Source: a virus
Strand: one strand, 5' to 3'
DNA: 64,000 nt
Virus record (IMG/VR): IMGVR_UViG_3300022924_000016
Location: 77,324-141,323 of that record
In this document: in pieces, positions 20,001 through 48,967 of the stretch
Numbering within the stretch: the stretch's first letter is position 1
Layout of the letters: every line of letters begins with the position of its first letter
The notes under the pieces: generated by a model
What the model saw: only the letters and a program-made list of their open reading frames with translations
Told to the model about the DNA's origin: nothing
Databases searched by the model: none
Translations under genes and position numbers: made by a program

Positions 20001-22569
20001 GTCAGCTGTCAGGGATGCCCAATCTATTTTGGAAGTTCAGACCGCCGAGGCAAGAAACATTCTAGAAGAACAAGAAACAACAGAAATTCAATCAGTTTCA
20101 ACAGTTAATGAAAGCTACAGAAAAGATTTACAATCTAATGGAATCACTTCAAACAGTCCGCAAGAAATTGATTTTATATTAAAACACGTAACTTCAAACG
20201 GTAGAAGCAGTATAGAATCTTTAAGAAGAAACTTGCAGAGATTGCAAAAAGGAGAGTCTGTCATTATGACTGATTTTTTAAGGAACTTAACTGATGGAAG
20301 AACAGACTATGACAATGTCTTATCAGAATTTGCGAGAAGAAAACTTTTACCATATTATAAAAGAACAGAACCGCAAGGATTTACGGAAGCCTATGAAGAA
20401 CTAAAAAGAAATGTCTCTGAAAACCAATCGGGAGCAGTTTTAGATTTTATTGAAAGCGGTATAGTAGAAGTAAAACCAAGTTGGAGCTATTATGACGCAA
20501 TGGCAAATGTAAACCCTAAATGGATTGAAAATCGTGACGCGCAAAGAGACCAATACACAGAAGCCTATAAAAACTCTGTAAGGAATGATGAATACTACCA
20601 AAGATATGGAATAGACGAGCAAGGAAACGCCACACAAAACATTCAAGAGTTCGAAGCCAGAAAAATACTTCTAGAATATAACGACCAAAGTTTGGAAAAT
20701 TATGGTATCCAAGCAACACATGACAGATACCAATTACCGCAGTTTTTAAGGAGCGCGACAAGAAGATTAACAGACGGCTCAAATAAACTAAAATCCCTAA
20801 AAGAAATCGCCTCAGATATGACAGGTATCAGAGAGGATGAAGCAGATTTAGGACAGGATGTATCAGGAAATCTCGCCAAAAAAGGAGACAGCCTATTATC
20901 GGTTCCAACTTACGGGGTAAGAAAATTGAAAGACCAAACAGATGTAACAGACGAACTTTTATTGTCTTATGCAATGTTCAACCAACAGTCAGCATTATAC
21001 AAAGCAAGAAGAGAAAACATCTCAGATATGCTGGTATTGGAAGATTTCATATTGTCAAAAGAAAGAGATTATCCAGGCAAAAAAGCGGAAGCAACAAACA
21101 CCTATAAAATGTTCAATTCATTTCTAAAATCAAATTTCTATGGCGTAAAAGAAACATTCAGCCAAGAAGTAACAGTTTTAGGGAAAAAAGTGGATTTAGG
21201 AAAACTGGCAAGAACTTTCAACAGCTGGGTAAGATTCTCAAATTTAGCGGGTGTGACAGTACCATTGACTTCGGCTCTGCAAGGAAAAACTCAAGAATTT
21301 TTAGAGGTGGCTGTAGGTGAAGTTTTAGATAGAACGGCTTACAAGGAGGCGCAGAAAGAATTTGCAAGGAAAGGAAGTCAGCAGGCGGGAGAAATTTTAA
21401 AATATAATGGGAAAGCTGAGATTTCAGTCTATGGTGAGCGTTTTGGATTATACAATCTGACAGAAAGATTTGAAAACTCTTACATTGGAAGAGCGGGGAG
21501 AGGTATTTTGAAATCATCGTCACTTTTGCATAGTTTGGGCAACTTTCCTGTAACAACGACCGTGATGCTTTCTGTAATTTACGACTATAGAGTTTATGGA
21601 AACGAAGTTATTACATATAGACAGTTTAAGGAGATTAATAATGGAAAAGACGACAGATTACTTTGGGAAAAACAACCTCTATTCAAAGATTTAATCCCTG
21701 TAAAAGATGGTGTTATTGCGCCTAATTACAAAGGTATCTCTGAACAGTTAAACATAAGTGAAGAGGAAGCTGTTGAAAAAACAGACTTGATTTTAGAAGC
21801 AATTAATGCTAGAACGGCTTCGGCGGTTCAGAGAGTCGATTCTCAGATAAAAGAAAGTGACAAGTCAATTGCGGCTAGGGACAGTCGATCTAACTTTTTC
21901 TTACTTCATCAAGGATGGTTTTTGGTTGCGCTACAAAATAAGACAAAAAACTATCACTATAACATTTCGGAGGGGACATATCAGGAAGGGAACCTAAGAA
22001 CTACCTTAAATTTAATAAACAATCTTGCCCAAAATGTTTTAAAACCAAAAGAATTAAAAAGAATTTGGCAAGAAAATATGGCAGATGAGTTATCAAGAAG
22101 AAATCTTAGACGTACGGCATATGAGATAGCTTTAGCCAATATATTAGCAATTGCGGCAATACTTTTAGCCAACATGGCAGATGAACCCGACGATCCAGCA
22201 TACCTACTGACAATGAGTGATTACTTTCTTACAAGAGTAGCGGTTGAGCAGATTTCAGGAACAGTTGCTCTACCATTAAATGTTGACCAAATGCTTTCAG
22301 ACCCTTTGATTATTAAAACTAAATTTGAAGACTTGATGAAAATAGATGAACTATTTAGTTCTGACTTGGTATCAACAGGAAGTTTCGCAAATGAGACAAA
22401 AAGATACCGTTGGCTATCTAAAAACTTACCTTTTGTTAAAGACTATCACAGGTTTTCTGACCTATCCAAAGCCCGTGATACCTATGCGTACTTTTCAGTG
22501 GAAAAACCAAATTTGTTTAGGAATTGGGCTTGGTTATCAAATTTAGCAGAAAACGAATCAGAAGAATAA
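17005..22569 (+). CDS. Giant ejection protein with degenerate zincin-like metallopeptidase segment
   Basis: 1854 aa; starts MAC; LTEEVSH...EEILGK; hydrophobic helix near the C-terminus; no RNAP DxDGD motif seen. Confidence 0.55.
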   Translation: MACEIIYKNGRQVGVNAPDGRPSLVFNQILNIPHIQDFQEALKGYTNLLADNNNEESPISFQNQGQEFQTLKEALKNSQPNSEIQVVTNGKSFMTIDTTINPQTRSGLLNSLIKEDILTGNSFLDVDGAKVLEVTGNNEQEKAVYADVARTVSKRYKGAFSALVGQDNNITFRERQEVPKSETFTQLTQRFDEPTAVFIKTLEEISLETNANNSALEEIQIIPENQLQEKLLQLLNKLGVKTTSIEKWAEKYAQKNGYEPSAKALADLANNIVAFKDGIITQADLTEEVSHFIIATLDEEQIANQKRNVHRTKEWAEFAEQYFEIYSETLEGEGLEDAVREEILGKVLANSLLDNFAREGETTLEGGIVATLRNFFQDFFNRVYDFFQPNYQTQLETFTEQVYRDLMNDSLDVDVRNKENKSYTLYNSAGRTALAQTIQKSYETLLNQQYALRNSSANKNTLNKLKQTIALTDEASLKNSTLQLVAVANSQANSLLKSLETADKNSRHFTSEENGVFQSTVSRLAPMLRQIRESINDKAIAKQIDDVLQKISTIEGRVPATNTKARDLIVERVIRKNNMTPEQANKYREYIDNISRTAEADTGWLHAHLGGLINSRDGLLNLAGEIIERTQYQERTTHQNQTKPFLNRLEALGLTESQIPTTLKKLIYNGGIINETDPQKVLEVDNTEKARILSVILREPLTKETVQEKIDSMQSEYDSLQRELTANKELSQEDIDKKTQNRDEISGQLANLEKEFRKTFTQRFESYFDPKYLEKLQNFSIVTNGVTIDRTSIPDDVLQLDKLYRSQIGEIKKQGELTSSEIAEIKNLTKQKLQEANPRYSDGKLKKGVLEVYDRELKKFTYFLDASEDLSDLDFSEAQKVVGLQNLMLLNSEFYKGNSNSQGITQKFLDELNSLSTEQEKFDFLNNNATTAFTQDFWDNFDPNNSLVARLLEVGSPEALEFAQNIREQQSIISTIIRGNKSMSNPSEVDVFDMNDIEMSAVRDAQSILEVQTAEARNILEEQETTEIQSVSTVNESYRKDLQSNGITSNSPQEIDFILKHVTSNGRSSIESLRRNLQRLQKGESVIMTDFLRNLTDGRTDYDNVLSEFARRKLLPYYKRTEPQGFTEAYEELKRNVSENQSGAVLDFIESGIVEVKPSWSYYDAMANVNPKWIENRDAQRDQYTEAYKNSVRNDEYYQRYGIDEQGNATQNIQEFEARKILLEYNDQSLENYGIQATHDRYQLPQFLRSATRRLTDGSNKLKSLKEIASDMTGIREDEADLGQDVSGNLAKKGDSLLSVPTYGVRKLKDQTDVTDELLLSYAMFNQQSALYKARRENISDMLVLEDFILSKERDYPGKKAEATNTYKMFNSFLKSNFYGVKETFSQEVTVLGKKVDLGKLARTFNSWVRFSNLAGVTVPLTSALQGKTQEFLEVAVGEVLDRTAYKEAQKEFARKGSQQAGEILKYNGKAEISVYGERFGLYNLTERFENSYIGRAGRGILKSSSLLHSLGNFPVTTTVMLSVIYDYRVYGNEVITYRQFKEINNGKDDRLLWEKQPLFKDLIPVKDGVIAPNYKGISEQLNISEEEAVEKTDLILEAINARTASAVQRVDSQIKESDKSIAARDSRSNFFLLHQGWFLVALQNKTKNYHYNISEGTYQEGNLRTTLNLINNLAQNVLKPKELKRIWQENMADELSRRNLRRTAYEIALANILAIAAILLANMADEPDDPAYLLTMSDYFLTRVAVEQISGTVALPLNVDQMLSDPLIIKTKFEDLMKIDELFSSDLVSTGSFANETKRYRWLSKNLPFVKDYHRFSDLSKARDTYAYFSVEKPNLFRNWAWLSNLAENESEE

Positions 22570-23327
22570 TGGCAATAAAAAGATCAGATAGAGTAGGAGA
22601 AAAATTCATAACTAGGCAGGGATACTCAGGCGAAATAGTAAGTTATACAAATTCTTATGTTTCAACAGTTAAGTTATCAGATGGCACTTTTATTGATAAT
22701 GTAGCCTATGAGAGAATAAGTGACGGATGTCTTAAAAACCCTAATCATAGAAATGCTTTAGGTATTGGGTTCCAAGGACAGGGTAAATATACTTTTACAC
22801 AATATCCTGAAATAGAACAAAAATGGAGATCAATGATATCTAGATGTTATTCAGAAGCAGTTCATAAAAGACAACCTGCTTATATTGGGTGTTCTGTCTC
22901 AGAAGAATGGCATAATTTCCAAGTTTTTGCCGAATGGTATGAAAATAACTATAATCCTGAGTATATGAATTCAAGTTGGCATTTAGATAAGGATATTATT
23001 TGCAAAGATTGTAAAACTTACTCATCAGAAAATTGTGCTTTCATACCTCGTGAAATCAACAACTTATTTTTAAAATCTGCCAAAGTAGATAATAATTGCC
23101 CAAGAGGAGTGTCTAAGAAAAAACAAGGAGGGAAGTATCACATTAATTTATCTCTAAAGGTAACTAAAGGTTTCAAAGGATATTTCATTACACCCGAAGA
23201 AGCTTTTAAAGTATTCAAAGACATGAAAGAGCAACATATAAAAGAAGTCGCCGACAAATGGAAAGACCTAATCGATCCAAGAGTTTACGAAGCACTCTAT
23301 AATTATAGAGTAGAAATAACAGATTAA
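22569..23327 (+). CDS. HNH-like homing endonuclease with AP2-like C-terminal domain
   Basis: WRSMISRCY, GCSVSEEWHNFQ.FAEW, LDKDII, YSSENC.FIP..IN. ATG at 22569 overlaps the upstream TAA and is preferred to the annotated TTG. Confidence 0.75.
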   Translation: MAIKRSDRVGEKFITRQGYSGEIVSYTNSYVSTVKLSDGTFIDNVAYERISDGCLKNPNHRNALGIGFQGQGKYTFTQYPEIEQKWRSMISRCYSEAVHKRQPAYIGCSVSEEWHNFQVFAEWYENNYNPEYMNSSWHLDKDIICKDCKTYSSENCAFIPREINNLFLKSAKVDNNCPRGVSKKKQGGKYHINLSLKVTKGFKGYFITPEEAFKVFKDMKEQHIKEVADKWKDLIDPRVYEALYNYRVEITD

Positions 23328-23351
23328 AAATTAACCCAAACACAAATAAAA

Positions 23352-23507
23352 ATGAACAGATTCAGATTAAGCTGGTTTAACCTTTTCACAACCCTTAACG
23401 CATTAATCCTGCCAAAAGATGTAGTAGTTGAAAAAGTAGAAGATGGGGATGACATCCTCACAGCAATAGCAAAATTACAAGCCCAAATTGATGAATTAAA
23501 CGCCTAA
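23352..23507 (+). CDS. Small protein (51 aa), not in the ORF track
   Basis: MNRFRLSW...GDDILTAIAKLQAQIDELNA; A-rich start context; followed by a terminator. Confidence 0.55.
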   Translation: MNRFRLSWFNLFTTLNALILPKDVVVEKVEDGDDILTAIAKLQAQIDELNA

Positions 23508-23511
23508 AACG

Positions 23512-23546
23512 AAAATCCCTGAGACTAAATATCAAAGGGATTTTTT
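23512..23546 (+). terminator. Intrinsic terminator ending the virion operon
   Basis: AAAATCCCT...AGGGATTTTTT. Confidence 0.7.
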
Positions 23547-23587
23547 AATTTAACAAACCTTTGGCTTTTATTTTGAATTAAACTTCC

Positions 23588-23595
23588 TATATTTG
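23588..23595 (+). promoter_or_regulatory. -7 promoter element
   Basis: TATATTTG followed by CAGAAGAAAA, just after the terminator. Confidence 0.65.
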
Positions 23596-23616
23596 CAGAA
23601 GAAAAATAAATAAAAT

Positions 23617-23844
23617 ATGGAAGATTTTAAATGGAAAACTTACGCACCTCATTCAAATAACAATGAAACTATGGATGATTTCTTGACCAATTACCTCGAT
23701 AACCATTGCGGGATAGACTTCACCATTGTTTATGAAGATGGATCGTATGCTGAGATAATTAATTCAGAAAAAGAGCATTATGCAATCCATGCCTCGGGAG
23801 ATGGGGATTTCTTTAACCATAAAATTAGATTTGAAAAACTATGA
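23617..23844 (+). CDS. Hypothetical protein
   Basis: ORF downstream of a promoter. Confidence 0.6.
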   Translation: MEDFKWKTYAPHSNNNETMDDFLTNYLDNHCGIDFTIVYEDGSYAEIINSEKEHYAIHASGDGDFFNHKIRFEKL

Positions 23845-24053
23845 AAACAGCAATGCAAGATATGATACAGTTTTTAGAAGAAAACTGCATGGATGGAGCA
23901 ACAGAACCAAAAGAAATTCTTTTTAAAGCTTTTGAACTCCAAGACAAAGAAAAAAAGCAAATTTCTGATGCTTGGGAATTTGGAAAGTCGGCTGGGTACG
24001 CTAATGCCGATTATACAGTAGGAGATTATTTTAACGAAATATTTAATTCATAG
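23841..24053 (+). CDS. Hypothetical protein, paralogue of 28074-28283
   Basis: Shared EENC.DG.TEPKEILFKA.EL..KEK.QI.DA. Confidence 0.7.
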   Translation: MKTAMQDMIQFLEENCMDGATEPKEILFKAFELQDKEKKQISDAWEFGKSAGYANADYTVGDYFNEIFNS

Positions 24054-24056
24054 CTT

Positions 24057-24461
24057 ATGAAAACACAAGAAAACAAACAAAAAGCTATTGAGTTGGCTTA
24101 TGGGGATTATTATTTAGAAGGTAGTTCAATTGATGAAAACGGATGGACTGATTCTATTAGTTCTGAAATGTTAAATACAATACCTTGTGATTATAAATCA
24201 TTAGAAATAGAATATAAAAGAACTAGTCATTTTTATAGACCAAAATCACTTTCAGCAATCGAACACAACAACAATTGGATTTCCATACGTTCAAAAGAAG
24301 ATTTGCCAAATAATAATGGTCATTATTTAGTATTTAATAAACACAACAATACCATTGATATTGATTATATACATTCTGACTATGATTCTCATTCAGAAAG
24401 ATGGATGGAATTTAATTCACATTACCAACCTATCGAAAAACCATCAAAACCACTGTACTAA
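24057..24461 (+). CDS. Hypothetical protein with DUF551-like C-terminus
   Basis: WISI....DLP....YLV ... SHYQPIEKP. Confidence 0.5.
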   Translation: MKTQENKQKAIELAYGDYYLEGSSIDENGWTDSISSEMLNTIPCDYKSLEIEYKRTSHFYRPKSLSAIEHNNNWISIRSKEDLPNNNGHYLVFNKHNNTIDIDYIHSDYDSHSERWMEFNSHYQPIEKPSKPLY

Positions 24462-24693
24462 TGAACACAAAAATTAAAATTTTTAGAAATGGAAATAGTG
24501 ATAGTTTACTAGAATCACAAGTTAACCAATTTTTAAACAAGTGCAAAAGCATTCTATCAGTAACGGCTTTAAGCACTTCAAAAGTAGGGGATATCGCAAT
24601 AGTTGTGGTATTTATCGATAATTTATAAAAAGCAATATACTATAAAACAGCAAAAGGAATTTAAAATATAAATTCAACCACTAAATAAAATAA

Positions 24694-26745
24694 ATGAAAA
24701 CATTATTAACAGCATTACTTATTACAACATTATCTTTCGGGCAATTTAATCCCCAAACACAGCAAAACACTGTAAACCAACCAACAACAGCTTCAAACAC
24801 TTACTCACACCCTAGTGAGCTTAAATTAGACAACACACTAACCTTAGTAGAAGGAGCAAACCTTACAATAAACGGCAATTTGTCTAGGCTAGGTAATAAT
24901 GGTAGAATCATTATGATGGGTAATAACAAGCTCATAGTAAATGGAAACATAAACAGTAACATTAAGTTTGAAATGAATGGAAATTGCTGTATCTATTCTT
25001 CTTCCAATATCAATATCCAATCAGGCGATGTTACTTCAAATAACTCTGGAAACTATATCAGCAGTGGGGGAAATATTAACGGGCTAAGCAACATCCCACA
25101 ATCAATTTGTGCCAACCAGCAAATCTCTAATCCTTGCGCCAATCCTAATACGATTAACTGCGGAAACCAATGTTCAACCGATCCGAATAACACCGCCACT
25201 TGGAAGACAGTGAATGGAGTTTTAGGCTGGTATAACGGACAGAACCCTACTACACCGGCAGACAAGACAGCTATCATAGCGGAGGACTTTTCAGGTTTTG
25301 GATTCAGATGTTGCTCTCTTACAATCAATACAGGAAAATCATTAACCGTTAATACAGGCATTACAGTTTCAGTTACAAACTCTGTTAAAAACTACGGCAA
25401 CCTAACAGTCAATAACGGAGGAAATCTTATTCAAGTGAACGACTATTCCATTAATTTAGGCAACGCCATAGTAAAAAGAACAGCAAAACCTATGACAAGA
25501 TATGACTACACTTATTGGTCTTCTCCTGTTGCAAATCAGACTCTTTTTAATCTATCACCTCTAACTCTATCAGATAAGTATTTTAAATGGAACTCAACCA
25601 ATCAAAGCTGGCAGGTAATTCCATCAGGGAATGAAGTGATGCAGAAAGCCTTGGGGTATATTGTTAGAGCACCTCAGACATTTACAATCTCAGGAACGCC
25701 TGAAGTATTTTCAGCCACTTTCTCAGGAGTCTTAAATAACGGCTTAGCAAAAGTAACAACATCTACAGGCTTGGCACTTTTAGGAAATCTTTATCCGAGT
25801 TCTCTAGACGCTAGAAAATTTATCTTGCAAAATTCTGTAGGAACACTATATTTTTGGACGCACAACACAAAGGTAAGCAGTATTCCTAATTCAGAGGGTC
25901 ATTACAGCTACAATAGTGCAGACTACGCATGTTTTAATCTAACAGGCGGAACAGCCACAGGAGTAGGAGAAACGCCTAATGGATATATTGGTTCGGGACA
26001 GGGATTCTTTGTGGAGACTTCTACAAGCTCAGAGATAGTTTTTAATAATTCAATGAGAACTTTAGGCAGTACCAATACGCAGTTTTTTAGGAATGGTCAA
26101 GAAGGCAGATTATGGCTAAATCTTGTAAATTCTGAAAATACTAGATTCTCTCAAATTCTTTTGGGGTATTTAGCAGAAGCAAATGATGGGTTTGATAACT
26201 TATATGACGGAAAAACAAAAAGTTCAGGAAGTTATTTATATTCTATTTTAGATGATAAAGAATTGGCAATCCAAGGAAAGGCTGTTTTTCAAGATACAGA
26301 CGAAGTTAAATTAGGATATTCGGCGACAACACAGGGAAGCTTTAATATTTCTTTGGATAGCTTTGAAGGAGTTTTTGATAATCAAGATATTTACTTAGAG
26401 GACAAGCTTTTAAACTTAGTTCATAACTTAAAAAACTCTGCTTATTCTTTCAGTACTTCGGCGGGAAACTTTAAAGAGAGATTTGTTTTAAAATATAGAC
26501 AGGCGAATTTAGGGGTAAAAGAAAGTAAACTAGAATGTAATATCTATGCTTCAAATAACATAATTAGAGTAAATAGCAAAGAAACAGTAAAATCAATAGA
26601 AGTTTATGATTTATCAGGGAAATTACTATATAAACAAACGGTTAACAACACTAATTTCAAAACAGAAAGAATTGAAGCTGATTGTGTAATAGTGAAATTG
26701 AATATTGAAGTAAAGACATTTTCAAAAAAGATTCTGCTAAAGTAA
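24694..26745 (+). CDS. T9SS sorting-domain-containing secreted protein (Flavobacterium-type)
   Basis: Sec signal peptide MKTLLTALLITTLSFG/Q; YTYWSSPV, GNLYPS.LD, GQGFFV, GFD..YDG, YLEDKLL, ERFVLKY; C-terminal domain ...VKSIEVYDLSGKLLY...VKL...FSKKILLK. Confidence 0.85.
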   Translation: MKTLLTALLITTLSFGQFNPQTQQNTVNQPTTASNTYSHPSELKLDNTLTLVEGANLTINGNLSRLGNNGRIIMMGNNKLIVNGNINSNIKFEMNGNCCIYSSSNINIQSGDVTSNNSGNYISSGGNINGLSNIPQSICANQQISNPCANPNTINCGNQCSTDPNNTATWKTVNGVLGWYNGQNPTTPADKTAIIAEDFSGFGFRCCSLTINTGKSLTVNTGITVSVTNSVKNYGNLTVNNGGNLIQVNDYSINLGNAIVKRTAKPMTRYDYTYWSSPVANQTLFNLSPLTLSDKYFKWNSTNQSWQVIPSGNEVMQKALGYIVRAPQTFTISGTPEVFSATFSGVLNNGLAKVTTSTGLALLGNLYPSSLDARKFILQNSVGTLYFWTHNTKVSSIPNSEGHYSYNSADYACFNLTGGTATGVGETPNGYIGSGQGFFVETSTSSEIVFNNSMRTLGSTNTQFFRNGQEGRLWLNLVNSENTRFSQILLGYLAEANDGFDNLYDGKTKSSGSYLYSILDDKELAIQGKAVFQDTDEVKLGYSATTQGSFNISLDSFEGVFDNQDIYLEDKLLNLVHNLKNSAYSFSTSAGNFKERFVLKYRQANLGVKESKLECNIYASNNIIRVNSKETVKSIEVYDLSGKLLYKQTVNNTNFKTERIEADCVIVKLNIEVKTFSKKILLK

Positions 26746-26799
26746 AGTTAAAAAATAATTGGAAAATATTGCGTAGATTTGAAGAATAAAATAAAAGAT

Positions 26800-27291
26800 A
26801 TGGACAAGATTAAACAACTACAAAAACAACTTGATGTTGAAAGAGCCAAAGAAAAAAGTAAAGAGCTTGAAAAAATTAATAAATTGACGGGTATTAGAAT
26901 TGGGGATGTTGTTGAATTTACTTATGAAGATGGATCAGGTGGTTATGACAGTGAATACTACTGGTCAAAGGGAGAAGTATACGATATTCATAAATCCTTT
27001 GAATCTATTTTTCTCTATATAAAAGGACGACACACTTCTATAAATTTAAAAGATGCTAAATTATTCAATGAAAATGACTATGAGATGCGTCACTCTATCT
27101 ATGAAAGAGAGTTAGACTTAGAAGATGAGTTTCAATTGATTGTTGAAAAACCAAAATCTACAAAAGGAAAAGTGTATAAGGTATATAAAATATTAAAGGA
27201 AGTAGGTGAAAATATTCAATATTTTTATTGGAATGATTATAATAAATCGCAATCCTTATACGAAGGAGAGTTTTACGTAACAAAACCTTGA
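26800..27291 (+). CDS. Hypothetical protein
   Basis: ORF; TAGATTTG promoter element at 26774-26781 favours the ATG at 26800. Confidence 0.6.
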   Translation: MDKIKQLQKQLDVERAKEKSKELEKINKLTGIRIGDVVEFTYEDGSGGYDSEYYWSKGEVYDIHKSFESIFLYIKGRHTSINLKDAKLFNENDYEMRHSIYERELDLEDEFQLIVEKPKSTKGKVYKVYKILKEVGENIQYFYWNDYNKSQSLYEGEFYVTKP

Positions 27292-27741
27292 AATGGACAA
27301 ACATCTAAAAGAGCTGTATAACGTGTCAATGGGATTACTTTTAAAAGATACTCAAAATAAATCTTTTTTCACGCAAAAAGAGTTTGAGAAGAACAGAGCT
27401 AAAATTGGAATTATCCATAACGCAAAAGATAAATTAGAAGAAAAATTAAAAGTATGAGATATTACTATCATCACTTTGGAGACGATGAGCCTGTAGAAGT
27501 TTTCATTATACAGGAATCAAAAGGCTTAGTTGAAATTAACCGAGACCCAAAAGCAAGAGCAGGGCATTGGAAAAGTAAAACACAATTAATCATAAAATAA
27601 TGGAAAAATCTTTCAAAGAGTTTATTGATATAGTTTTTGGAACGACTATGTTTTTTCTCCTTTTGGTAAATTTTCAAGAGGATTTAGGAAGTGCTAAACT
27701 ACTATCGATATGTGCAGTTTTATCTATATTTTATAGAAAGT

Positions 27742-28077
27742 ATGACAACAGAACTAACTAAAGACATTTGGAATAACTTCATAGCAATTCCATTCAACAA
27801 AAACAAGTCACACAACTTTTCGGTAAAAGATTTGAAAACAATCATAGAAAAGCATTTAGGTAAGGAAGAAGTAAAGAAACAGTTTAAACCTTTTAAAGTT
27901 GGAGAAGTTTACCAAACCAAAGGGCAAGTTTCAGAACCGTTCAAAATCGCGGAAATAAAAACTAAAATAAAAGAAGGCAAAACAGTTCCATATTACTTTA
28001 ACGGATTTTATTTAAACAGAGAACACTTAGGAATTTGTCCAATAAACGCAGAACAATTAATACAGAAAATAAGATGA
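27742..28077 (+). CDS. Hypothetical protein
   Basis: ORF; ATG at 27742 preferred. Confidence 0.55.
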   Translation: MTTELTKDIWNNFIAIPFNKNKSHNFSVKDLKTIIEKHLGKEEVKKQFKPFKVGEVYQTKGQVSEPFKIAEIKTKIKEGKTVPYYFNGFYLNREHLGICPINAEQLIQKIR

Positions 28078-28283
28078 AAACAATAATTCAAGAATTAATT
28101 GAGTGGATTGAAGAAAATTGCATAGATGGTGTGACAGAACCTAAAGAAATTCTTTTCAAGGCTATTGAACTTAAAGAAAAAGAAAAACAACAAATTATGG
28201 ACGCTTATCAATATGCAGAAGACGTTTGCTATGCAGAATCTGATTTTACCGCAGAGGAATACTATAATAAATACTTCAAATAA
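28074..28283 (+). CDS. Hypothetical protein, paralogue of 23841-24053
   Basis: Sequence similarity; ATGA overlap. Confidence 0.7.
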   Translation: MKTIIQELIEWIEENCIDGVTEPKEILFKAIELKEKEKQQIMDAYQYAEDVCYAESDFTAEEYYNKYFK

Positions 28284-28285
28284 GA

Positions 28286-28636
28286 ATGAATATATTTACT
28301 CTAACCGAATATGACTACGATGGAAACAGCTGGTCATTATGGATGCACAAGACTAAAGAAAAAGAACAGTTTGTTGAAGATTGTCAATGGATTGTAAAAA
28401 CTCATTTGGAATTGTTATTTAAAGCCGAAGAAGAGGGATTTTACAAGAGAATTGGAAGTGAAGAAGTAATAAATTTAATAAGAGAGTATTTACCTAAGCT
28501 AGGCTATGAAAACACCAGAGCCTGGGATTATGGTTTTAGATGGCAAATCCGTGCTGAGGAAATCTTAGAAGAAATTGTAGATGAAAGTACTCTATCTAAG
28601 TTAAAGCAACACAATAAAAAAGCATTTAAGAAATGA
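28286..28636 (+). CDS. Hypothetical protein
   Basis: ORF in a tightly packed operon. Confidence 0.6.
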   Translation: MNIFTLTEYDYDGNSWSLWMHKTKEKEQFVEDCQWIVKTHLELLFKAEEEGFYKRIGSEEVINLIREYLPKLGYENTRAWDYGFRWQIRAEEILEEIVDESTLSKLKQHNKKAFKK

Positions 28637-28890
28637 AAAACTTAATATTATTTTTACTCTTTCCAATTTTAATTTTGGCGCAAGAAAAAGAATTAGAAGT
28701 ATTCCAAACAAACGAAATAGGGTTACAACAGTTAGTACCAAGCCAAATAGTTATAGAAACAGAGTACAAAACAGAAATCTATAAAACTAATGAGTTAGGT
28801 ATTAGAAACCTAATACCCGAAGTAATTATAGAAAAGAAAAACGAACAAGATTTAGAACCAATTAATTATATAGATGGAAACAAGAATTAA
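28633..28890 (+). CDS. Small secreted protein with two internal repeats
   Basis: Signal peptide MKNLILFLLFPILILA/Q; repeats EVFQTNEIGLQQLVP and EIYKTNELGIRNLIP. Confidence 0.6.
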   Translation: MKNLILFLLFPILILAQEKELEVFQTNEIGLQQLVPSQIVIETEYKTEIYKTNELGIRNLIPEVIIEKKNEQDLEPINYIDGNKN

Positions 28891-29134
28891 ACTTACATTT
28901 GGAAGCTTCAACAATAATCAAGGAGAAGTAGAGGTTACAAATAATATCCACAATCAAACTTATGAATTATCAGAAGAATTTTTAGGAGAGATGGAAAAAG
29001 TTCTAAGGTTAGACAGCTCTTTTAAAATCGGCGGGAAAAGTATTGAAACACAAGAAATTGAAATTCATGGATTCAGATTCCTAGACAGAAAAGAGATAGA
29101 ACAGTTTTTAAATTGGTTTGACAAAAATGTTTAG
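28874..29134 (+). CDS. Hypothetical protein
   Basis: ORF. Confidence 0.55.
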   Translation: METRIKLTFGSFNNNQGEVEVTNNIHNQTYELSEEFLGEMEKVLRLDSSFKIGGKSIETQEIEIHGFRFLDRKEIEQFLNWFDKNV

Positions 29135-29522
29135 CTTCAACAACAATATCGCCGAAAAACAAGTAAGAGATAAAATCACGTCAACTTGTAAAAAGATTAA
29201 GGTAAAGGTAGGTAAAATCTCATGGACGTACAAATGCCATTTGAATTCTGTTGATAGCGCCATAAAAAAGAAAGATAAAGAGATTGCTATGGTTATGGCT
29301 TATAAAAACGGCTATGGGTTCATTCATTTCATAAATCTAAGAAAAGGTAAATACACAGACAATACTTGGGGAGTTTGGTCAGCAGAGTATGATTACTATT
29401 TAATCAAGAAAATACCAAGAGAAGACTTTTATAAGGTTGGAGATATTTTTGACAGCTACCGTGCGGAGTTAAGAAACAGTCTACGATGGTATTTGAGGAT
29501 TACTTCTACAGAAACTTGGTAA
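29127..29522 (+). CDS. Hypothetical protein
   Basis: ORF; ATG at 29127. Confidence 0.55.
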   Translation: MFSFNNNIAEKQVRDKITSTCKKIKVKVGKISWTYKCHLNSVDSAIKKKDKEIAMVMAYKNGYGFIHFINLRKGKYTDNTWGVWSAEYDYYLIKKIPREDFYKVGDIFDSYRAELRNSLRWYLRITSTETW

Positions 29523-29560
29523 TAAAACGTTAAAAACAAAAAACTAATTAAATTTTTAAG

Positions 29561-29568
29561 TATCTTTG
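29561..29568 (+). promoter_or_regulatory. -7 promoter element (near-leaderless transcript)
   Basis: TATCTTTG 4 nt before the ATG. Confidence 0.5.
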
Positions 29569-29572
29569 AATT

Positions 29573-30019
29573 ATGGAAAATAAAACTTTAGAATTCGTAA
29601 GGGAGTTCAACACAGCATTAGGAGAAACAGATGAATATCTTTGCTTAAATTATAATCAAGATGGATTTTCAGAATCAATTACATTTCCAAAGCAGATTTT
29701 ATGGGATGATAATAATGACAATGAAGATTTTCAGAAACAGCATACACTGTCAAGGCTGTATAGAATCTTGATTCATACAGAAGAAGTGGTTCAGCAATTT
29801 ATAGTAGATGAAGTAGATAAGTTTTTTGCGGAAAAAGTAAGACAGAGTGAAGAAAAGTTTTCAAATATAAAATTAAATTTAGACAGACAAACAAAATGCT
29901 TATATAAATTATCTGTAGAAGGTAATTATAATGAGGATAGAATGGAAGAATTTGTAGATATTTTTAAAGAAGATTTTCAATACCTTTTTGAAGGTTTTAA
30001 ATTAGAATATGAGTACTAA
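29573..30019 (+). CDS. Hypothetical protein
   Basis: ORF. Confidence 0.6.
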   Translation: MENKTLEFVREFNTALGETDEYLCLNYNQDGFSESITFPKQILWDDNNDNEDFQKQHTLSRLYRILIHTEEVVQQFIVDEVDKFFAEKVRQSEEKFSNIKLNLDRQTKCLYKLSVEGNYNEDRMEEFVDIFKEDFQYLFEGFKLEYEY

Positions 30020-48727: not shown

Positions 48728-48967
48728 ATGAAAAAACTGTTTTTATTTTTAATTCTTTTTTGCGCGATTTCGTGCTCATTCAAAGAACCAAAACCAATAG
48801 AGAGGTATCAAGACAAAGGGTTTGTGCTTATTGAAGAGCCTATGAAATGGAACGGCTCTAAATTATTTTTAAAACTTAAGAATGCAGATACTATTATTGA
48901 AGTAGCTGTCCCACCATTCGATGCTTTAAATCTAAAAATAGGCGACACATTAAAATCAAAATTATGA
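48728..48967 (+). CDS. Putative lipoprotein
   Basis: MKKLFLFLILFCAIS/C lipobox-like signal. Confidence 0.55.
   Translation: MKKLFLFLILFCAISCSFKEPKPIERYQDKGFVLIEEPMKWNGSKLFLKLKNADTIIEVAVPPFDALNLKIGDTLKSKL

What the first reader, a model, noticed from the sequence alone, without database searches (positions are those of the whole stretch)
24694..26745. Phage-encoded substrate of the host type IX secretion system
Seen: an intact 683-aa ORF with a Sec signal peptide followed by Gln, an Asn/Gly-rich beta-helix-like region, a Cys-rich linker, the YTYWSSPV domain typical of large Flavobacterium surface proteins, and a T9SS C-terminal sorting domain (YDLSGK...VKL...SKKILLK). It sits among early small genes, not in the virion operon. 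Established: T9SS exports adhesins and gliding proteins in Bacteroidota, and loss of gliding/T9SS function is linked to phage resistance in Flavobacterium. Inference: the phage hijacks T9SS to display a protein that masks receptors, jams the translocon (superinfection exclusion) or changes adhesion of infected cells.
Basis: partly seen in the sequence, partly recalled or inferred. Interest (0 to 1): 0.8.

Follow-up and report, generated by a model that had tools for sequence, protein, structure and literature searches.

The report
Phage-encoded RemA-like type IX cargo
A large lytic phage of Flavobacterium-type bacteria carries an intact, selectively maintained copy of a host gliding-adhesin-family gene (RemA/RemZ type) with the signals for export to the cell surface by the host's type IX secretion system. 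The phage therefore probably remodels the surface of the cell it infects; phage-borne T9SS cargo has been reported before, but not this family.

Summary
Window 24694-26745(+) is an intact 683-aa ORF in a 141-kb, 96%-complete virus record distantly related to Cellulophaga phages phi4:1/phi17:2.

Architecture: a Sec signal peptide ending FG|Q, a small beta-helix head, a four-Cys linker, a ~450-aa conserved module and a C-terminal beta-sandwich.

Residues 162-681 are homologous to Flavobacterium johnsoniae RemA (gliding adhesin) and RemZ, with E about 1e-93. Both are proven T9SS substrates.

The curated CTD HMMs hit only below cut-off. The modelled CTD, however, superposes on the translocon-bound RemA CTD (Z 12.7, rmsd 1.0 A) and keeps the PorV-contacting Lys.

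The gene is syntenic in independent assemblies of related phages and under purifying selection (dN/dS about 0.1). Its rare head also occurs in three other phage-like contigs and two bacterial chromosomal loci. Eight further IMG/VR contigs carry Rem-module cargo, five of them headless.

The function is inferred: surface display that competes with or masks host Rem-type adhesins, which the literature regards as candidate phage receptors, or that changes adhesion. The 'early gene' timing is unproven.

Phage-encoded T9SS cargo was already reported (Bellas 2020; de Jonge 2019), and this scan noted a related case on other DNA.

Verdict: a new member of a known kind, of moderate interest.

The parts
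24694..26745 (+). Whole gene: 683-aa RemA/RemZ-family T9SS cargo homologue (stop codon included)
   Evidence: ORF list. phmmer hits to RemZ 8gl8_D (E 2.9e-93) and RemA 8gl6_D (E 4.3e-93). Syntenic orthologues at 82-94% identity. dN/dS 0.09-0.13.
24694..24741 (+). Sec (SPase I) signal peptide, residues 1-16, cleavage predicted before Gln17
   Evidence: K2, hydrophobic LLTALLITTL, then S-F-G|Q. FGQ is identical in four phage orthologues. Modelled as a low-confidence helix, residues 2-13. By inspection only; no SignalP was run.
24766..25098 (+). Head: small right-handed beta-helix, residues ~25-135, Asn/Gly-rich
   Evidence: AF2 pLDDT 85-91. VIA Z 11.6, rmsd 3.0, 129 residues aligned to tapirin C-terminal domain 4wa0. 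dN/dS 0.03-0.06, the lowest in the gene. Only 6 hits in 1.84 billion representative proteins.
25108..25173 (+). Cys-rich linker, residues 139-160 (C139, C148, C156, C160)
   Evidence: All four Cys are invariant in the phage orthologues and in the chromosomal orthologue P0005. Lower model confidence, pLDDT 53-72.
25177..26529 (+). Rem module, residues 162-612: short beta-helix, a beta-rich domain with the DYTYWSSPV motif, then a beta-sandwich
   Evidence: Aligns to RemA 898-1434 and RemZ 579-1103. The A1 profile gives E 2.7e-225 for RemZ and 4.2e-211 for RemA. Family-invariant residues are kept. The AF2 model has pLDDT 90.1 and pTM 0.88, with no solved fold above Z 5.8.
26530..26742 (+). T9SS C-terminal sorting domain (beta-sandwich), residues 613-683, with motifs VYDLSGK, VIVKL and KKILLK
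   Evidence: VIA Z 12.7, rmsd 1.0 A over 71 residues, 28% identity to the translocon-bound RemA CTD 8gl6_D; Z 10.9 to the RemZ CTD. Foldseek TM 0.85, probability 1.00. HMMs are sub-threshold. K679 is invariant and aligns with RemA K1432.

Best explanation
The gene encodes a compact member of the RemA/RemZ family of Flavobacterium cell-surface proteins, held by a lytic phage.

Shown or strongly supported: it is a phage gene, intact, under purifying selection, and homologous end to end with proven T9SS substrates, with a CTD of the same fold.

Inferred pathway: after infection the precursor crosses the inner membrane by Sec. The signal peptide is cut before Gln17. The C-terminal beta-sandwich is then bound by PorV/SprA, and the protein is exported by the host type IX system. 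The Rem module places it where host Rem-type adhesins sit, with the small beta-helix head pointing outward.

Most likely consequence (inferred, about 0.4 of the probability): it competes with or covers host Rem-type adhesins. The literature regards these as candidate receptors for Flavobacterium phages. Infected cells and their debris would then stop adsorbing further phage. This would be superinfection exclusion and progeny protection, analogous to T5 Llp.
For: Phage origin and context:
- The record is a 96%-complete virus.
- Terminase, portal and capsid-type PHROG hits lie upstream. The capsid protein is 33% identical to that of Cellulophaga phages phi4:1/phi17:2.
- No tyrosine integrase was found.
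- The same synteny appears in seven independent samples.

Family and export signal:
- RemA/RemZ homology has E about 1e-93 over residues 162-681; profile E values are 1e-211 and 1e-225.
- The CTD superposes on the RemA CTD at 1.0 A.
- K679 is invariant and aligns with RemA K1432. By equal distance from the C-terminus it matches RemZ K1110, the conserved Lys that H-bonds PorV (PMC10994853).
- RemA export needs GldK/L/M, SprA and PorV (PMC9127263).

Selection:
- dN/dS is 0.09-0.13 overall and 0.11-0.32 in the CTD.
- All invariant columns of the 40-sequence family alignment A1 are kept.

Recurrence in phages:
- Three other phage-like contigs carry the same head.
- Eight IMG/VR contigs carry Rem-module ORFs next to tail sheath, UvsX or RNase H genes.
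- Of seven of these ORFs scanned, five pass the curated type A CTD cut-off.
- Five of the eight are headless (signal peptide, module and CTD only). The module itself therefore seems to be what phages need.
Against: - No experiment exists: secretion, surface display and any effect on adsorption are all inferred.
- The CTD misses both curated HMM cut-offs. The phage CTD replaces a Gln that at least 70% of the cellular relatives aligned in A1 carry before the VK motif, and the LNG turn common among them.
- The host is unknown, so possession of a T9SS is assumed from homologue taxonomy.
- The head is the most constrained part (dN/dS 0.03-0.06) and is shared with chromosomal orthologues at 51% identity. 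This fits a ligand-binding adhesin at least as well as a passive mask.
- Expression timing is unknown.
- How RemA-type proteins are held on the surface is not established, so 'competition for docking sites' has no defined molecular target.
Confidence: 0.55

Rival explanations
1. Adhesion or motility manipulation. The exported protein is a working adhesin whose head binds a specific ligand, such as a glycan on surfaces, on neighbouring host cells or on particles. The phage uses it to make infected cells stick, aggregate or stop gliding, which would raise the local density of new hosts at lysis.
For: The head has the strongest purifying selection in the gene (dN/dS 0.03-0.06; 85-93% amino-acid identity). 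It is shared with chromosomal orthologues in a conserved recX-bioF locus, so it has a cellular, presumably binding, role. Its best fold match is the beta-helix of a cellulose-binding adhesin (Z 11.6). RemA itself is described in the literature read here as a gliding motility adhesin (PMC10994853, PMC9127263).
Against: Five of the eight other viral Rem-module ORFs have no head at all, so a head ligand cannot be the general reason phages keep the module. No ligand is predictable, and Pfam and NCBIfam are silent on the head.
Confidence: 0.28
2. Translocon jamming. The protein is made in excess to occupy SprA/PorV translocons and shut down export of host T9SS cargo, including receptors and degradative enzymes. 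It would need no function of its own at the surface.
For: RemZ is the substrate found trapped on the F. johnsoniae translocon when the motor is removed (PMC10994853). The phage CTD is divergent from cellular ones (22 bits against 38-61 bits on NF033708).
Against: Jamming would not require conservation of the head or of every family-invariant residue in the 450-aa module. The CTD keeps the PorV-contact Lys and the native fold, which is what productive transport needs.
Confidence: 0.07
3. Neutral passenger or artefact. The gene is a recently captured host gene with no role for the phage, or host DNA mis-joined into the viral contig.
For: The nearest relatives are cellular Flavobacterium proteins. 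The deposited phage collection shows no homologue.
Against: Phage copies have diverged to dS about 1 while dN/dS stays near 0.1. The position is conserved in independent assemblies. Composition matches the phage (GC z 0.64). The phage clade is monophyletic on a long stem (100/100).
Confidence: 0.03

Closest known systems
RemA (Fjoh_0808) and RemZ (Fjoh_0803) of Flavobacterium johnsoniae: T9SS type A substrates, RemA being a gliding motility adhesin (PDB 8gl6_D, 8gl8_D; PMC10994853)
   Same: Signal peptide, the ~450-aa conserved C-terminal module and the CTD are homologous (E about 1e-93 over residues 162-681). The CTD fold matches at rmsd 1.0-1.4 A. The PorV-contacting Lys is kept.
   Different: It is encoded by a lytic phage and is about half the size (683 aa against 1436 and 1114 aa). 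It lacks their long passenger regions, and no lectin or other Pfam domain was found. Instead it carries a rare 120-aa beta-helix head plus a four-Cys linker. The CTD is more divergent and sub-threshold on the curated HMMs.
T9SS-CTD cargo genes of 'Cryophage' (Bellas et al. 2020, PMC7468147) and of crAss-like cluster 2 phages (de Jonge et al. 2019, PMC6949934)
   Same: Phage-encoded proteins carrying a T9SS sorting domain, proposed to hijack host secretion. These too are known from sequence only.
   Different: Those are an endoglucanase, a GH39 and a PA14 protein, or BACON-repeat proteins, and they are described as highly variable between phage variants. This one is an adhesin-family (Rem) protein, conserved at 82-94% identity and under strong purifying selection.
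Phage superinfection-exclusion surface proteins that block their own receptor (T5 Llp, Cor, Streptococcus phage TP-J34 Ltp; reviewed in PMC11436027, with Llp recalled from my own knowledge)
   Same: Proposed logic: a phage-encoded protein is exported by a host pathway to the envelope, where it makes the receptor unavailable.
   Different: Those are small lipoproteins exported by Sec/Lol, with no homology to this protein. Here the protein would be a homologue of the candidate receptor family itself, exported by T9SS. No functional data exist.
T9SS type C sorting signal (NF033708, ChiA type; PMC10202324)
   Same: NCBI names most cellular relatives 'T9SS sorting signal type C domain-containing protein'. 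The orthologues P0005, P0009 and P0058 pass that model at 40.5-43.2 bits.
   Different: The phage copies score 21.8-22.7 bits against a cut-off of 40. The family's solved relatives RemA and RemZ are treated as type A in PMC10994853, so this family straddles the two HMM definitions.

Membership tests
RemA/RemZ family (Flavobacterium T9SS surface proteins) | Homology to the conserved C-terminal region of RemA/RemZ that precedes the CTD | tested here: met
   phmmer E 4.3e-93 (RemA 898-1434) and 2.9e-93 (RemZ 579-1103). Profile E 4.2e-211 and 2.7e-225. All invariant columns of the 40-sequence family alignment are kept.
RemA/RemZ family (Flavobacterium T9SS surface proteins) | N-terminal Sec signal peptide | tested here: met
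   By inspection: MKTLLTALLITTLSFG|Q, conserved in the orthologues. No dedicated predictor was available.
RemA/RemZ family (Flavobacterium T9SS surface proteins) | Lectin-type passenger domain as in RemA | tested here: not met
   No Pfam domain at E<=0.1. The head is a small beta-helix. This feature defines RemA itself, not the wider family, whose passengers vary (Ig-like, HYR, DUF7507, G8 and others).
RemA/RemZ family (Flavobacterium T9SS surface proteins) | Surface localisation and movement along the cell | not testable with these tools
   Needs tagging and microscopy in a gliding host.
T9SS type A C-terminal sorting domain (TIGR04183 / PF18962) | Score at or above the curated cut-off (23 bits) | tested here: not met
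   18.0 bits; 20.5 bits in the six-frame search; orthologues 19.2-22.0. PF18962 was not reported. More distant viral Rem-module ORFs pass at 25-45 bits.
T9SS type A C-terminal sorting domain (TIGR04183 / PF18962) | Beta-sandwich of about 70 residues at the extreme C-terminus, superposable on CTDs seen bound in the translocon | tested here: met
   Z 12.7, rmsd 1.0 A, 71 residues against the RemA CTD. Also RemZ (10.9), RgpB (9.0), NucA (8.6), FspA (8.4), HBP35 and mirolase CTDs. Foldseek TM 0.85.
T9SS type A C-terminal sorting domain (TIGR04183 / PF18962) | Conserved Lys four residues from the C-terminus that contacts PorV (RemZ K1110) | tested here: met
   K679 is invariant in the 40 aligned sequences and aligned to RemA K1432. 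Its role is taken from PMC10994853.
T9SS type A C-terminal sorting domain (TIGR04183 / PF18962) | T9SS-dependent secretion | not testable with these tools
   Requires expression in wild type against gld/spr/porV mutants.
T9SS type C sorting signal (NF033708) | Score at or above the curated cut-off (40 bits) | tested here: not met
   21.8 bits and 23.2 bits. Among the cellular proteins scanned, P0005, P0009, P0011, P0017, P0022 and P0058 score 40.5-60.7 and pass, while P0081 scores 37.8 and falls just short.
Phage-encoded T9SS cargo (as in PMC7468147) | Gene lies inside a bona fide phage genome, not host flank or chimera | tested here: met
   96%-complete virus record. Virion and packaging genes lie upstream. 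Conserved synteny across samples. Phage-like composition.

The most novel reading that the evidence does not exclude
Rem-module proteins (signal peptide, Rem module and T9SS CTD, with or without a head) are a widespread, dedicated phage tool in Bacteroidota. Unrelated phages (phi4:1-like podoviruses, myoviruses, T4-like jumbo phages) would load a mimic of the host's own gliding adhesins, that is of their receptor family, onto the infected cell through T9SS. The mimic would displace those receptors. This would be a new class of superinfection exclusion built on receptor mimicry and secretion-system hijack.
Probability: 0.3. Interest if true: 0.75.

Novelty: new member of a known kind. Interest (0 to 1): 0.55.

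Why it matters
Resistance to Flavobacterium phages maps again and again to gliding and T9SS genes, and RemA/SprB-type adhesins are suspected receptors, but no phage counter-move at that interface has been described.

This is a lytic phage carrying a conserved, export-competent homologue of that adhesin family. Relatives recur in at least a dozen other phage or phage-like contigs. Together they give a concrete, clonable candidate for testing two questions:
- whether phages manipulate the T9SS-dependent surface layer;
- what the uncharacterised 450-aa Rem module does. This module is found in more than 900 Bacteroidota proteins, has no Pfam or NCBIfam model and has no solved fold.

It also bears on phage therapy of fish-pathogenic flavobacteria, where receptor loss and exclusion limit efficacy.

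Tried and rejected
- Pfam gave nothing (G8, E 0.19). PHROGs gave nothing for the gene or for most neighbours.
- tblastn and megablast against 50,697 deposited phage genomes gave no match. Records near the window's own may have been withheld.
- A single-protein scan of IMG/VR found nothing; the alignment-based scan was needed.
- The exact look-up of P0001 failed.
- Fold searches with the Rem-module model: Foldseek found no hit with E<=1e-3. VIA best Z was 5.8, covering only the short beta-helix, and about 4 for the terminal sandwich. No solved fold was therefore identified for the module core; this is not proof that the fold is new.
- A scan of GTDB species genomes with the head alignment found no relative. 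A word-based search of the head found only the phage orthologues.
- A sigma-70 promoter and terminator scan gave no more sites than shuffles.
- The Bacteroidota-type -7 box TAnnTTTG occurs about once per kb. The only site in the stretch scanned (window 22000-30000) that also has an upstream TTTG is at 23560-23595, and its spacer is 24 nt. I do not rely on it.
- The idea that the head copies a domain of the phage's own tail proteins was rejected: there is no similarity in the genome.
- A PID-CTERM mini-protein partner behind the gene (a lead from earlier scan notes) is absent in this phage. A look-alike behind P0006 in L017 does not hit NF046080.
- The direction of gene transfer between phage and cell could not be resolved.
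- Shrivastava 2012 (PMC3393505) is not held. RemA biology is therefore cited through secondary papers.
Full report
THE OBJECT. The ORF at window 24694-26745(+) is real: 683 codons, ATG start, no internal stop. The window is the last 64 kb of a 141,323-bp IMG/VR virus record rated 96% complete, and the gene lies at 102,017-104,065 of it.

The record is a phage:
- A plus-strand block from about 44 to 100 kb holds terminase, portal, a capsid-type 565-aa protein and a row of giant virion proteins (PHROG hits).
- The 565-aa protein is 33% identical, and the 1854-aa protein 25% identical, to structural proteins of the 145-kb Cellulophaga phages phi4:1 and phi17:2, with weaker links to crAss-like gut phages.
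- No tyrosine integrase is detectable, so it is most likely lytic.

The gene starts 2.1 kb after the last giant virion gene, on the same strand. An HNH endonuclease and five small ORFs lie between, and about 30 kb of mostly small ORFs follows. In phi17:2 the equivalent position holds non-structural genes such as a ligase and a methyltransferase, but no homologue of this gene. 'Outside the virion block' is therefore right. 'Early' is unproven: the promoter scans were uninformative.

NOT AN ARTEFACT. Orthologues of 679-683 aa (82-94% identical) exist. Those whose contigs could be read lie in the same place: behind the ~1850-aa virion protein and the 252-aa HNH gene, and in front of shared downstream genes. 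These contigs were assembled independently from seven samples. GC and GC3 of the gene are within one SD of the phage's genes.

Pairwise Nei-Gojobori estimates among four phage copies give dS about 0.8-1.3 and dN/dS 0.09-0.13. By region, dN/dS is 0.03-0.06 in the head, 0.08-0.13 in the conserved module and 0.11-0.32 in the C-terminal domain. The gene has therefore been kept functional in this phage lineage for a long time.

ANATOMY.
- Residues 1-16 are a typical SPase I signal with Gln at +1. The FGQ junction is identical in all phage copies. A +1 Gln that is cyclised is the 'Q-rule' of Bacteroidota, which I cite from my own knowledge.
- An AlphaFold2 model of the whole protein (mean pLDDT 82.8) shows a small right-handed beta-helix at about 25-150. 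Its best match is the tapirin adhesin C-terminal domain 4wa0 (Z 11.6, rmsd 3.0, 129 residues).
- A four-Cys linker follows, invariant in the phage and bacterial orthologues.
- Next comes a second short beta-helix that runs into a beta-rich region and a beta-sandwich. Modelled alone, this part reaches pLDDT 90.1 and pTM 0.88.
- The last domain is a C-terminal beta-sandwich at 613-683.

WHAT IT IS. Curated domain libraries are nearly silent: Pfam gives nothing. NCBIfam gives only sub-threshold hits to the T9SS type C (21.8 bits, cut-off 40) and type A (18.0 bits, cut-off 23) sorting-domain models (six-frame confirmation).

The decisive result came from the sequences of solved structures. Residues 162-681 align with F. 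johnsoniae RemA residues 898-1434 (E 4.3e-93), and residues 177-673 with RemZ/Fjoh_0803 residues 579-1103 (E 2.9e-93). A profile of 40 family members gives E 4.2e-211 for RemA and 2.7e-225 for RemZ.

RemA is the gliding adhesin. RemZ is its homologue and was found trapped in the T9SS translocon. Both are treated as type A substrates, and the RemA CTD alone drives secretion of mCherry (PMC10994853).

The modelled CTD superposes on the translocon-bound RemA CTD with Z 12.7, rmsd 1.0 A, 71 residues and 28% identity. It also matches the CTDs of RemZ, RgpB, NucA, FspA, HBP35 and mirolase. K679 is invariant in the family alignment and aligns with RemA K1432. By equal distance from the C-terminus it corresponds to RemZ K1110, the one conserved CTD residue that contacts PorV (PMC10994853).

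The motifs VYDLSGK, VIVKL and KKILLK are kept. The lower HMM scores are probably explained by two changes: loss of a Gln that at least 70% of the aligned cellular relatives carry before the VK motif, and loss of the LNG turn common among them.

I conclude that this is a RemA/RemZ-family T9SS cargo homologue whose sorting domain is divergent but structurally intact. The roughly 450-aa 'Rem module' is shared by more than 900 mostly Flavobacterium proteins with many different N-terminal passengers. It has no Pfam or NCBIfam model and no solved fold above Z 5.8.

RELATIVES AND ORIGIN. The head is very rare. A profile search of 1.84 billion representative proteins found six proteins:
- One is a phage orthologue (P0003).
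- Two (P0005, P0009) are chromosomal, lying between recX and a bioF-like gene in bacteria with 40% and 53% GC. They match the phage protein over its full length at 38-41% identity; the head of P0005 is 51% identical.
- Two (P0121, P0122) lie in low-GC contigs made of dozens of small unannotated ORFs with a few PHROG hits, as does the full-length relative P0006, which was not among the six. Apart from one small 46-aa match in the contig that carries P0122, these contigs share nothing else with this phage. They are probably other phages.
- The sixth (P0123, 3353 aa) is a weak hit.

On trees of the module, the five phi4:1-like phage copies are monophyletic (100/100) on a long stem. P0006 groups with the chromosomal copies and a Flavobacterium MAG protein. 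The deeper order, and so the direction of transfer, is unresolved.

An alignment-based scan of IMG/VR found eight further viral contigs (8-294 kb) with Rem-module ORFs at about 30% identity:
- All eight have a signal-peptide-like N-terminus (most with Gln at the predicted +1 position) and a CTD-like tail.
- Seven were scanned against the curated models; five pass the type A cut-off at 25-45 bits.
- Their neighbours include tail sheath, UvsX-like recombinase and RNase H genes.
- Five of the eight are 'headless': signal peptide, Rem module and CTD only, 557-575 aa.

BFVD also holds an uncultured marine phage protein with the same architecture (E 1.2e-23) and viral entries named 'Secretion system C-terminal sorting domain'.

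HOW IT PROBABLY WORKS. The following are shown: gene integrity, phage residence, purifying selection, family membership and CTD fold.

The following is inferred from established T9SS biology. Sec export and signal-peptide cleavage come first. The CTD is then captured by PorV/SprA, and transport is driven by GldLM. RemA export needs GldK/L/M, SprA and PorV (PMC9127263). The result is display on the outer surface.

The biological payoff is inferred from context. Phage-resistant Flavobacterium mutants map to gliding and T9SS genes (bioRxiv 10.1101/2020.10.02.323337; PMC9804748). [quoted passage not shown]

A phage-made Rem protein could occupy the transport route and the surface positions of host Rem adhesins, or cover them. 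This would stop further adsorption to infected cells and debris. Headless versions in other phages favour a role for the module itself. The extreme constraint on the head, and its presence in chromosomal orthologues, favour a specific binding role, which is the basis of the adhesion/motility rival. Pure translocon jamming is the least consistent with the conservation pattern. My estimates are exclusion/receptor competition about 0.4, adhesion manipulation about 0.3, jamming below 0.1 and neutral or artefact about 0.03. The identity and export claim alone I put at about 0.85.

COMPARISON AND NOVELTY. Phage-encoded T9SS cargo is already in print:
- Bellas et al. 2020 described three CTD-bearing genes in 'Cryophage' and proposed hijacking of host secretion, including superinfection-related roles (PMC7468147).
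- De Jonge et al. 2019 noted T9SS sorting-domain proteins in crAss-like phages (PMC6949934).
I did not test that note.

None of these has been tested experimentally as far as my searches show. Three things are new here: the family (RemA/RemZ, the candidate receptor family), the compact head-plus-module form, and the evidence for long-term purifying selection and recurrence in unrelated phages. I class it as a new member of a known kind, of moderate interest.

Noticed in passing
L023:5890-7563, L024:1106-2791, L025:5920-7641, L026:5920-7647, L028:3306-4991 (IMG/VR contigs): 'Headless' Rem proteins of 557-575 aa (signal peptide directly followed by the Rem module and a CTD) occur in viral contigs of 8-191 kb, next to UvsX-like and other phage genes. 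Of the four scanned, L023 and L024 pass the curated type A CTD cut-off, while L025 and L026 gave no CTD hit; L028 was not scanned.
   Followed up: partly
L017:3364-3675 (behind P0006): A 103-aa ORF lies directly behind a Rem-like gene. It has a signal peptide, a long Asn/Gly then Asp/Tyr low-complexity run, 'PID', a hydrophobic helix and a basic tail. It resembles the PID-CTERM mini-proteins that earlier scan notes found behind RemA-type cargo, but NF046080 did not hit. No such ORF follows the gene in this window.
   Followed up: partly
L029:5008-7011: This viral Rem-module ORF shows a near-threshold PID-CTERM match (25.4 bits against 26) at residues 47-68, near its N-terminus. A type A CTD lies at its end. 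It may be a fused or mis-called upstream mini-gene.
   Followed up: no
window 23841-24053 and 28035-28283: Two small ORFs (70 and 82 aa) flanking the region are clear paralogues. Both contain ...EENC.DG.TEPKEILFKA.EL..KEK.QI.DA.... Their function is unknown.
   Followed up: no
window 28633-28890; window 48728-48967; G000:C1:61789-62916: Other candidate exported phage proteins. An 85-aa ORF has a signal-peptide-like start (MKNLILFLLFPILILAQ). A 79-aa ORF has a lipobox-like start (LFCAISC), possibly an Llp-type lipoprotein. A 375-aa ORF in the structural block starts MKNLLALITILLSSTIYCQ. None hits NCBIfam.
   Followed up: partly
window 22524-23327; L012:2651-3643: An HNH homing-endonuclease gene (phrog_953, E 1e-60) sits between the last virion gene and the accessory region. 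A related phage has an extra NUMOD4/HNH_3 gene inserted just upstream of the Rem-like gene. The junction therefore looks like an insertion hot spot.
   Followed up: no
L008:746-4405 (G000:C1:44745-48404): A 1219-aa ORF combines a helicase-like PHROG match (residues 468-733) with a large-terminase match (740-1164). This is unusually long for a terminase.
   Followed up: no
window residues 162-612 of the ORF (25177-26529) and the >900 cellular relatives: The Rem module is widespread in Bacteroidota T9SS cargo with many different passenger domains. It models at pLDDT 90 but has no Pfam or NCBIfam model, and no solved structure matches above Z 5.8.
   Followed up: partly
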